Below the pieces are notes generated by a model. That model saw nothing but the letters and a program-made list of their open reading frames with translations, made no database searches and was not told where the DNA came from. A stretch of DNA of 64,000 nt from Tubiluchus corallicola (Eukaryota > Animalia > Priapulida): assembly GCA_030141605.1 (NCBI GenBank), contig JAQGDQ010000753.1, positions 1 to 64,000 on the forward strand, in the 5' to 3' direction. Below, in pieces: positions 2,762-5,800 of the stretch (positions are counted from its first letter, which is position 1; each line of letters opens with the position of its first letter). The position numbers and the translations under genes are program-made.

Positions 2762-2832
2762 GTTCATCGTCTCACCTGGCAAGGAATGCGGGGACTGGTG
2801 GGAACAGGAGGCAGTTTTCTCGGTAGTAAAAA
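2762..2832 (+). CDS. PFK: PFK mutually exclusive exon A ([23 protein letters not shown]+aa)
   Basis: tttcag acceptor, gtaagt donor, 71 nt, phase 0/2; matches the PFK 'W..V.GW.G.GGS.LGTKR' segment. Confidence 0.88.
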
Positions 2833-5800
2833 GTAAGTTGATTGAAAATCGGTTTCTTTGTGGTCGCTGTCGTTCACTTGTCTTGTGCGATTTTCAGATA
2901 AGACCTTTCAACTGGAATGAGCTGTACGGATGGGCGCGGCATGGCGGAGCAACTATGGGCACGAAGCAGTGAGTGGTCGAAATTGCATTGTCCGTTAGAC
3001 CAGCTGCGTGTTTACTACCTGTTATTTGACAGTGACATAGCGAAATACTTCGGCATTTTTATAAACTCGCAGTTTCCTGATTTTGTAACTCACTTGGTCA
3101 ATATGCTTTTGTATAAGTATCTTTAACTAGTGTATATTTTAATGCAATTTATAAAATTTATACATTTATAAAATTATTTAAAAACTTAAAATTTAAAAAC
3201 ATTACAATCTCACTCAATTCGTCTTTCATTATTATGTAACATGACACAAATGAAAAATGTTAACTCTACAATTTTGGTTAGTTTAATGTCATTACTCTCC
3301 CTTCATGTATTTTGTGGTGATTAGCTTTGAAACTATTACTGCGTTGATATCATCTTTTTTGAACGAAAAGTGTCTGAAAAGTCTGGTATTTGAAAAATTT
3401 TGGTATTAATGATTGTTAAGTTAGATTGCGGAAGTGATTTGCTATGTCACTAGGTGAATGTTACATGTTATGCGTGTTTTGCACTATGCATGTTCATTTG
3501 TACCTGGGTTGTTTTTAGTTATTTACTTTTAGTGATTATTTATATGTAATTCCCCGTTTATTATTAAAGTCAAGGAAATACACATTCAACATCTATAAGT
3601 AAACTTGTGCATACCTTATCAGTATTTTTGGAAGAAACTGATTTTTTCCTTGAAAAATCATCATTATTTCCTTGATTTTATCATCTTCTAAACACGCATG
3701 CTCCATTTTTACATTTTCCCAAATGATTAAACATTTTATTGCAGCTCAGCTTCTGAATGACTACATATGGCAATCTTATTCCTCAGACTTCTGCACATTA
3801 TTGCAGCTTTACTTTGCTGCTCTTTCCTTAAAGAATTACGTTATTGCAGACTTATAAACAATGGCACCATCTGATTACTACGTCTTTCTTTCAGTGTTAT
3901 GCTTTCACTTCACGGTCCGCAGTGATTTTATGATCTTGCTTCTTTCTATTCATGTAAACATTTATGTCTTCGAAAATAATTTTCTACAATGTTATGTTGC
4001 AAAAGTAACATTTTAAAGGTATTTTTAACCTTTTTTGTGTTGACTTGTAAATAAATTTGAAGAAATTCAGTGTGTTTCTACAGTGTTTATGCATCTTTAG
4101 CAGAGAAACTGATTTATTTATTAAAGGAAGACAGGATGATTTTTCATATACTACCCCATTTTCAAGTCCGATAAAAACTATACATTTTAACACCAATAAT
4201 ACTGCAAAAGCGTTTCTGTTAATTAAATATATTAAAATCCTAATTAATTGCTGGCGAACCATTGATGACATCACAAACTAACATAATTTTCAACAGCAAA
4301 AATATTGCATGAGTGTGTTGCACATGTTTGCGAATGCAAAAATTGCAGTACAGTGTTACTGTAAGAGATTCAGCGTGTTGTGCTAAAACTAGGCAAGTTT
4401 TAAGTTAAAAATTTAAATTTGAAATTTACGTGCTCATGCATGAGCTGTCGAACGTTTATAGTTCGTAACAAACTAACGCATCTGTACTGAGAGGTACAGC
4501 ACCTGTTTTTTGTGCAACACATTTCCGAAATGCAGGCGCTAGTGCCCGTTTAACTAGCGAATGGCAAAATACGTAAAACAGCGAAGAACTAGTGCCGCGA
4601 ATGTGAAATTGTGTTTGTGTGGTTATAATTCTTTCATTTTTGTATGTTTCCTTTCAATATTTCAAAGAGTAGATTGTTTTATTCTACAGTTTAAGATTGG
4701 GTCCAGTTTTGTTTTAAGTAGTTAATGCTCTTTTAAATCATCTGCTCCCATCTTTTTTTTTGATAAAGATAATATGTGTTTAGAATAGCATGTTTATATA
4801 GAAACAAAGTATAATACTGTATTTGTATAATTGTCTAGTTACGCCGTTGTAAACAGTGAAAAACTAAGTTGGTAACTTATAAAGAAAGAAACAAGTTTAA
4901 GAGGTAGCATTCATGATAAGCGAGTATCATTTGTTTTCAAAATGTTCTAAATTAAGATTACGTTTTAGTTAATGCCGGTACTACAGCTTTGCGGTTTCCA
5001 GCAATGAAGCATGGCACTGAAGTAGTTAAAATATCTTACTGTTTGGTCATACCTAGGCATCAGTGTTATTGTTACTGCGCTGACTTTGCCTTTTCTTATA
5101 ACTAAAATTGCATTCGTTTCTGATGTTTTATTAGTTTAATAATAATTTAGTAGATGGCCTCACTGGTTTTGCAAGTGCTGCTATATGGTAAATTGTGCAG
5201 ACCATGTGCCGCCATCTATTGACGAAAAAGAGAAAGCACTGTAAGCTGGCACCGTTTAAATATTGATTTGTACCTGTAGGCTAGTTTGGTTCCTATGGAA
5301 CTTGACCTAGGCAGAACGGCATACACTAACACTTATACTAATAAAGCTCTTGCTATTTTATTTGAACGCAATTTCTATGGGTGCTAAAACTGCTCCACAA
5401 AGTAAACATTTAGATCGCCTGAGGGTTTCGCTATTGTTCAGGGATGATAATTTTCCGCGGATACGCGAATTCCGAGTTTTTGGAAGACCAGTAGAGCCAT
5501 TTTTGTAAATAGCGTAAATTCGTTGAGAAAATTTTTACGGACCCAGTACATTATTTCACAAGCTGACCGCTAGTTGGCAGGCCGTCACTTTGTTTACATC
5601 ACGTACATCAGTGTAACCACGTGTGTATATCTCTATGTATAAAAATATAGAATCAATTGTGCAGAGTTATTTGAGTCAATTGCAGACAGTTTTTATATAC
5701 TTTTGCATAGCAGTGGCCAGCACTTAGGCGTTTTTGAGACAATTAGGTATCATGTATCCTTGATAGTTGGGTATTTTAAATTATGCATGAAACGAGGTAA

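What the first reader, a model, noticed from the sequence alone, without database searches (positions are those of the whole stretch)
2762..2968. Tandem mutually exclusive exon pair in the PFK regulatory half that swaps the effector-site loop
Seen: two exons of exactly 71 nt with the same phase (0/2) and canonical splice sites, 65 nt apart. They encode divergent versions of one segment: [24 protein letters not shown] and [24 protein letters not shown]. Including both or neither shifts the frame. Neither is visible in the ORF track in this frame. Knowledge: this is the 'W..V.GW.G.GGS.LGTKR' loop of eukaryotic PFK, whose final Arg is annotated as a fructose-2,6-bisphosphate ligand (about R471/472 in human PFKM; numbering from memory). 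Here that codon is split across the junction and becomes Lys (aa|g) or Gln (ca|g). Inference: one gene makes isoforms with different allosteric sensitivity by exon choice. A third variant keeping the Arg may lie upstream, because the preceding constitutive exon is not in the window.
Basis: partly seen in the sequence, partly recalled or inferred. Interest (0 to 1): 0.85.

Follow-up and report, generated by a model that had tools for sequence, protein, structure and literature searches.

The report
Swappable allosteric-loop exons in phosphofructokinase
An invertebrate's gene for phosphofructokinase, the pacemaker enzyme of glycolysis, carries two intact, very different copies of one short exon that fit the reading frame only one at a time; one copy is seen spliced in alone, the other is likely its alternative, and because they replace a conserved activator-binding arginine by lysine or glutamine they would give two enzymes predicted to differ in regulation.

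Summary
Two 71-nt AG/GT exons (2762-2832, 2898-2968) lie 65 nt apart; either alone gives an open 352-codon Pfk C-terminal frame, both or neither give stops. They are the two best of 33,059 stop-free windows. One contig of a probable RNA run joins an upstream Pfk exon straight to exon B, skipping A. A was not seen spliced, but looks selected. The segment equals human PFKP 458-481: it lines effector site A, interface 1 and R481, which hydrogen-bonds the sugar bisphosphate. All 16 other site residues in the window are kept. Lys here is ordinary in animals; Gln was seen in none of three sequence sets. The exon is single-copy in 25 of 25 other animal loci, so the duplication looks lineage-specific. 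Exclusivity is likely enforced by a branch point at most 44 nt (58 if atypical) from A's donor plus decay of frameshifted RNA. Kinetics are untested and a third upstream copy cannot be excluded. Pfk exon swaps are known (human PFKP, fly Pfk), and this scan noted three others at other exons, none here. Verdict: real, new position, familiar kind.

The parts
2762..2832 (+). Exon A (71 nt, phase 0/2), equals PFKP 458-481; gives Lys at R481, Arg at G467, Leu at W469
   Evidence: not seen spliced
2833..2897 (+). 65-nt intervening intron; only adenines past nt 16 are at nt 44 (TTCAC, best branch-point candidate, window 2876), 58 and the AG
   Evidence: shortest other Pfk intron in the window is 385 nt
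2898..2968 (+). Exon B (71 nt, phase 0/2); gives Gln at R481, Tyr at G467, Ala at S475
   Evidence: contig of run X2 joins an upstream Pfk exon exactly at 2898
6638..6725 (+). Next shared exon (88 nt); first base completes the split codon; carries GGFE (PFKP 508-510)
8218..8370 (+). Shared exon (153 nt, TISNN); single copy here, this is the exon that is duplicated in vertebrate PFKP
10166..10330 (+). Shared exon (165 nt; R576, MGG)
10716..10777 (+). Shared exon (62 nt)
11866..11977 (+). Shared exon (112 nt; E639, R665, H671, Q674)
14533..14635 (+). Shared exon (103 nt)
17253..17358 (+). Shared exon (106 nt)
19589..19784 (+). Last coding exon to TAA (R744); AAG acceptor chosen by homology

Best explanation
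This animal Pfk gene holds two intact tandem copies of the ancestral 71-nt exon for the PFKP 458-481 loop, only one of which fits the reading frame at a time; copy B is spliced in without A, copy A is likely the alternative, and the two enzymes are predicted to differ in allosteric control, with the Gln form B likely less responsive to fructose-2,6-bisphosphate than the Lys form A. Shown: exon anatomy, frame logic, upstream-exon-to-B junction in one contig, position of the residues in human structures, retention of the other site residues. Inferred: use of A; exclusion of double inclusion by a branch point too near A's donor, with nonsense-mediated decay clearing both-in and none-in RNAs; the size and direction of the kinetic difference; a lineage-specific origin.
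For: Frame. Homology far above background. A looks selected: 7 of 11 near-invariant columns kept, same as B; splice sites as good as the shared exons; neutral decay of 30% of sites kept AG/GT, frame and A's score in 9, 18 and 22 of 4000 trials from three start exons; the one X1 variant inside A is synonymous. Structure map: R481 hydrogen-bonds the sugar bisphosphate, W463/T464/G467/G468 line site A, G473-K480 are in interface 1 (PMC7702303 Suppl. Tables 3, 6, 7). 16 of 16 other site residues inside the window match a human isoform. Gln is absent in 170 motif-bearing proteins (169 Arg, 1 Lys), 121 representative segments (101 Arg, 7 Lys) and 25 genomic exons. Branch point at nt 44, under the ~50-nt steric threshold (PMC7969005). 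Non-3n ME exons rely on NMD in 14 of 19 C. elegans clusters (PMC4165533).
Against: Exon A was not seen in X2 at 88% or 80% likeness, and X2's contig runs through the upstream junction without a break; contigs show presence, not absence, and X2 also lacks the two shared exons laid. The contig stops 4 nt before B's donor, so the Gln codon is not shown in RNA. X2 is one run, RNA only by guess, and differs from the window at 3 of 67 letters. No relative with A-like or B-like exons was found (best 11 of 24 and 12 of 24 identities), so conservation of the pair is untested. Codon-position test is only borderline (13 of 20 vs 19 of 49, Fisher p 0.064), and at 20% neutral decay 136-220 of 4000 trials pass. 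The 50-nt threshold is vertebrate; C. elegans splices introns down to about 40 nt. No kinetics, and no mutagenesis paper on this Arg could be read.
Confidence: 0.55

Rival explanations
1. B is the only exon used; A is a recently abandoned or barely used duplicate, so the animal makes one Pfk with Gln at the Arg site.
For: Only B is seen in X2 and the contig is unbroken across the upstream junction. A lost the second Trp (W469L) and scores below B. A recent loss of function would leave frame and splice sites intact.
Against: A and B differ at 38 of 71 nt yet A keeps frame, splice sites and 7 of 11 near-invariant columns. Its donor matches U1 at 7 of 9, the best in the gene with one other. Leu occurs at that Trp position in 6 of 121 segments. 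One small contig set cannot show absence.
Confidence: 0.2
2. Both exons are used, but the difference lies in nucleotide effector site A or dimer interface 1 (Arg vs Tyr at G467, Ser/Ala 475, Phe/Thr 476), or is small; F2,6BP response is similar.
For: 17 of 23 residues differ, including site A and interface 1 positions. R481 is one of 19 site residues and the rest are intact.
Against: R481 is one of only four residues marked as hydrogen-bonding in Suppl. Table 6, and Gln removes the charge; Gln was not seen in any of three sets.
Confidence: 0.2
3. A third, Arg-bearing copy lies upstream of the window and is the main exon; A and B are minor variants (compatible with the best explanation on A and B).
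For: Both copies depart from the canonical segment (scores 52 and 59 against 74-83 for homologues); the upstream shared exon is not in the window (best motif score 12).
Against: No copy, intact or with stops, in 1-2761 or 2969-6600 (best 4.6 and 15.4). The only form seen in X2 is B.
Confidence: 0.2
4. A-to-I editing of the last exon base restores Arg in both forms (AAG to AGG, CAG to CGG), making editing the real switch.
For: A single A-to-G at 2832 or 2968 gives Arg in both.
Against: No complementary partner for either donor region in 1900-4800: 25 of 25 shuffles paired at least as well, and both bases are mostly unpaired in local folds. AA|GT occurs in 4 of 25 other loci. A G-to-A change in a split Arg codon explains the pattern without editing.
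Confidence: 0.04

Closest known systems
Human PFKP mutually exclusive exon pair (PFKP-203 vs PFKP-205; bioRxiv 10.1101/292813 and PMC7954323, passages read)
   Same: Same enzyme, regulatory half, tandem homologous exons touching the sugar-bisphosphate site; proposed to tune allostery.
   Different: Different exon: the 153-nt exon equal to window 8218-8370, single-copy here. The change near the ligand is conservative (V539I), the exon is 3n, and Arg481 is untouched.
Drosophila Pfk three-exon cluster (listed in PMC6071210, passages read)
   Same: Pfk isoforms by mutually exclusive exons in an invertebrate.
   Different: Three copies. The passage does not say which exon; an earlier scan note (e1-7507046, unchecked) gives 109 nt, so not this 71-nt exon.
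OGDH exons 4a/4b (PMC7969005, abstract start and passages) and PKM1/PKM2 (10.1101/292813, passages)
   Same: A metabolic control enzyme gains or loses sensitivity to an allosteric effector by exon choice; in OGDH exclusivity rests on branch points under ~50 nt from the 5' splice site.
   Different: Those switches are proven biochemically. OGDH uses distant branch points in a longer intron; here the whole intron is 65 nt.
Non-3n homologous ME exon pairs of C. elegans (PMC4165533, passages read)
   Same: Equal-length non-3n homologous exons, often 20-50% identical, with NMD removing double or zero inclusion.
   Different: Pfk is not among them (0 occurrences in the text).

Membership tests
Eukaryotic ATP-dependent PFK (PF00365), regulatory half | PFK domain match and the regulatory-half motifs | tested here: met
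   PF00365 above cut-off for two exons; human PFKP, PFKL, PFKM best in PDB; 16 of 16 site residues
Homologous mutually exclusive exon pair | Tandem homologous exons, equal length, same phase, canonical splice sites | tested here: met
Homologous mutually exclusive exon pair | Both-in and none-in products are non-productive | tested here: met
   early stops in both cases; decay itself not tested
Homologous mutually exclusive exon pair | Each exon is found alone in transcripts | tested here: inconclusive
   B joined to the upstream exon in one X2 contig; A not seen; no raw RNA reads
Homologous mutually exclusive exon pair | Both copies conserved in related species | not testable with these tools
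   no close relative in the protein sets or loci; no genome held
Steric-hindrance MXE | Branch point under about 50 nt from the upstream 5' splice site | tested here: inconclusive
   only candidates at nt 44 and 58; branch point not mapped; the species' minimum intron size unknown
Competing-RNA-structure MXE (docking/selector) | Significant intronic pairings that select one exon | tested here: inconclusive
   no upstream docking pair among 21 region pairs; A-intron hairpin z -1.1 to -2.7, one control exon reaches -2.1
Known Pfk MXE events (human PFKP 153-nt; fish N-half; fly cluster) | Same exon position | tested here: not met
   PFKP pair equals 8218-8370; fish extra pair is in the N-half; fly position known only from an unchecked note
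Allosteric-switch isoforms (PKM1/2, OGDH 4a/4b type) | Measured difference in effector response | not testable with these tools
   needs enzyme kinetics

The most novel reading that the evidence does not exclude
One Pfk gene encodes a splice-selected on/off switch for fructose-2,6-bisphosphate activation, the Pfk counterpart of PKM1/PKM2: the Gln form B, the one seen expressed, has an otherwise intact site but lacks a ligand Arg that is nearly invariant across eukaryotes, and would uncouple glycolysis from F2,6BP signalling in some tissue or under low oxygen.
Probability: 0.3. Interest if true: 0.65.

Novelty: new member of a known kind. Interest (0 to 1): 0.42.

Why it matters
Vertebrates tune phosphofructokinase with three genes; invertebrates appear to do it by duplicating exons of the regulatory half, each lineage at a different exon. 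This case gives a natural pair differing at the ligand Arg and at effector site A within one protein, a clean two-construct test of how much that loop sets F2,6BP and AMP/ADP sensitivity. If B is insensitive, it would be a splice-encoded effector switch in the main control enzyme of glycolysis. If A is dead, the animal still runs a Pfk with a substitution not seen in the sets examined.

Tried and rejected
No genome held, so no upstream search. Run search listed no RNA holder; one holder X1 and one same-label run X2. X2 gave no cover on exon A or on the shared exons 6638-6725 and 8218-8370; this is no evidence of absence. Three homologue searches did not reach a close relative: crowded by PFKP models with a doubled exon or empty. 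0 of 335 stored proteins hold two tandem copies of the motif, a weak test since both-in shifts the frame. Cluster members of five unnamed clusters, four Schistosoma japonicum models and four Mytilus models showed no swap of this exon. No extra copies of the eight shared exons in 1-28000. Hairpin of exon A with the 65-nt intron: 0 of 60 shuffles in the first screen of 21 pairs but 13 of 200, 36 of 500, 8 of 500, 32 of 500 and 70 of 500 in fuller controls: kept as a weak lead only. Editing partner not found. Apparent second copies in L015, L033, L037 were another frame of the next exon, and in L048, L076 a shared intronic stretch without exon ends. The organism was not placed: over 80 residues, unnamed proteins 52-53, a tick 51, flatworms 44-49, Mytilus 47, vertebrates 41-42. 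Six paper searches for the Arg by number listed no paper giving it; three look-ups for two papers were not held; one wrong paper id. The spliced isoforms were not folded.

Full report
Observation. The window holds the 3' half of an animal phosphofructokinase gene on the + strand. Exons A (2762-2832) and B (2898-2968) are 71 nt each, CAG-preceded and GT-followed, 65 nt apart. With the eight later exons, either alone gives 352 codons without an internal stop; both together stop one codon after A, and neither stops in the next exon. Against a profile from 54 distinct homologous segments they are the two best of 33,059 stop-free windows on both strands (59.4 and 52.0; next 13.1). No further copy, with or without stops, lies in 1-6600, and none of the other exons is duplicated in 1-28000. 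The exon upstream of A is outside the window and no genome is held.

RNA evidence. The run search gave one holder (X1) and one run of the same species label guessed to be RNA (X2). A 204-nt X2 contig lies on 2898-2964 with 3 other letters and starts exactly at B's acceptor; 137 letters before it do not lie on the stretch. The 30 printed read in frame as ten residues with the D-G-L-x-x-G pattern that precedes this exon in homologues. So B is spliced to the upstream exon with A skipped. The contig ends 4 nt before B's donor, so the junction that makes the Gln codon is not shown. A was not seen, nor were two shared exons; the tool warns that contigs drop variants and that records are filtered. 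X1 covers A, the intron and B as contiguous DNA with 2 differences in 451 nt, the one in A synonymous.

Is A alive? A and B share 33 of 71 nt and 6 of 23 residues, so the duplication is old. Each keeps 7 of 11 near-invariant columns, and A's splice sites are as good as those of the shared exons. In simulations, neutral change at 30% of sites kept splice sites, frame and A's score in 9, 18 and 22 of 4000 trials; at 20% in 136-220 of 4000. The codon-position test is borderline (p 0.064). Long selection on both is likely; recent abandonment of A is not excluded.

What the segment does. It equals human PFKP 458-481. In PMC7702303 (passages and supplement parts 1-2 read) R481 hydrogen-bonds the sugar bisphosphate, W463, T464, G467 and G468 line effector site A, which the paper assigns to AMP/ADP, and G473-K480 belong to interface 1. 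A reads Gln464, Arg467, Leu469, Lys481; B reads Asn464, Tyr467, Ala475, Gln481. Of the 19 site residues listed, 16 fall in shared exons of the window and all match a human isoform (Ile at 539 as in PFKL); two are upstream of the window. The Arg position is Arg in 169 and Lys in 1 of 170 motif-bearing proteins out of 175; Arg 101, Lys 7, Gln 0 in 121 segments used out of 195 domain hits (74 dropped as N-half or gapped; two N-half segments slipped through). Lys carriers include Mytilus, Pristionchus and Trichostrongylus. So Lys is ordinary and Gln is the anomaly. That loss of the charge weakens activation is inference; no mutagenesis paper on this residue could be read.

How widespread. Of 80 Pfk loci from metagenome contigs (organisms not named; best 80 of 235 confirmed), 25 carry the same 71-nt AG/GT exon (18 distinct peptides). 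All 25 have one copy in the DNA held, and 17 hold the whole interval from the upstream motif exon. The exon ends AG in 20, CG in 1, AA in 4, CA in none. The exon is therefore ancestral and its duplication looks lineage-specific. No A-like or B-like relative was found. The organism is an invertebrate animal that I could not place; earlier scan notes on this genome call it a likely priapulid, unchecked here.

Mechanism of exclusivity (inferred). The 65-nt intron has no adenine between nt 17 and 43; the candidates are nt 44 (TTCAC) and nt 58. Nt 44 is below the ~50-nt steric threshold cited in PMC7969005 (passages), but that figure is vertebrate and C. elegans splices ~40-nt introns (PMC4165533, passages). 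The other Pfk introns here are 385-3669 nt. Because 71 is not a multiple of three, decay would remove mistakes, as for 14 of 19 such clusters in C. elegans. A predicted hairpin of A with the intron, covering B's branch region, is only borderline. An editing route back to Arg is possible on paper but has no structural support.

Comparison and novelty. Mutually exclusive exons in Pfk are known: human PFKP at the 153-nt exon (10.1101/292813 and PMC7954323, passages) and a three-exon cluster in Drosophila (PMC6071210, passages; position not stated there). Fish PFKP models carry a further pair in the N-half, three fetched loci carry a pair at the 112-nt exon, and earlier scan notes report three other cases at other exons. 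I found no report of a pair at this exon in searches; the library lacks most subscription journals, and supplements of the MXE catalogues, which I did not read, could list one. PMC11345425 and PMC10586780 (passages) added background only. It works like PKM1/2 or OGDH 4a/4b in design, but the defining kinetic test is missing.

Verdict. A real, probably functional exon pair at a Pfk position not found duplicated elsewhere, with one exceptional substitution in the form seen expressed. New member of a known kind; interest 0.42.

Noticed in passing
L008 4472-4583 and 5037-5148; L011 5976-6087 and 7548-7659; L062 14201-14312 and 15212-15323: Tandem, divergent, AG/GT-flanked 112-nt copies of the Pfk exon carrying E639, R665, H671 and Q674 (single copy in the window at 11866-11977): a further candidate mutually exclusive pair on the same effector site, shared by three loci.
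   Followed up: partly
L044 12746-12853 and 15000-15110; Mytilus models P0003 vs P0336, P0338: Two alternative last coding exons of Pfk.
   Followed up: no
Mytilus coruscus models P0003, P0337, P0338 (residues about 473-479): Two alternative 7-residue segments immediately upstream of the 71-nt exon, used singly or together in the models; possible micro-exon pair.
   Followed up: no
window 1-529 and 1366-1894: Inverted repeat of at least 529 nt, 98% complementary, in the intron upstream of exon A; could form double-stranded pre-mRNA or be an assembly feature. No Pfam match for its 47-codon frame.
   Followed up: partly
window 3031-3055 and 3427-3451: 25-nt inverted pair (84%) downstream of exon B; regions pair better than 60 of 60 shuffles in a screen of 21 pairs. 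Role unknown.
   Followed up: partly
window 2762-2897: Predicted 40-pair hairpin of exon A with the 65-nt intron, A's donor in the loop; the X1 allele at 2821 strengthens it (-38.0 to -41.8 kcal/mol). Borderline against controls.
   Followed up: yes
window about 29000-62100, + strand: A DEAH-box helicase gene in many exons, recalled as DHX38/Prp16-like from its motifs; not searched.
   Followed up: no
X2 record on window 2898-2964: The contig ends just before A2965, the middle base of the Lys480 codon; a two-allele branch there or a merge further upstream would both explain it.
   Followed up: no
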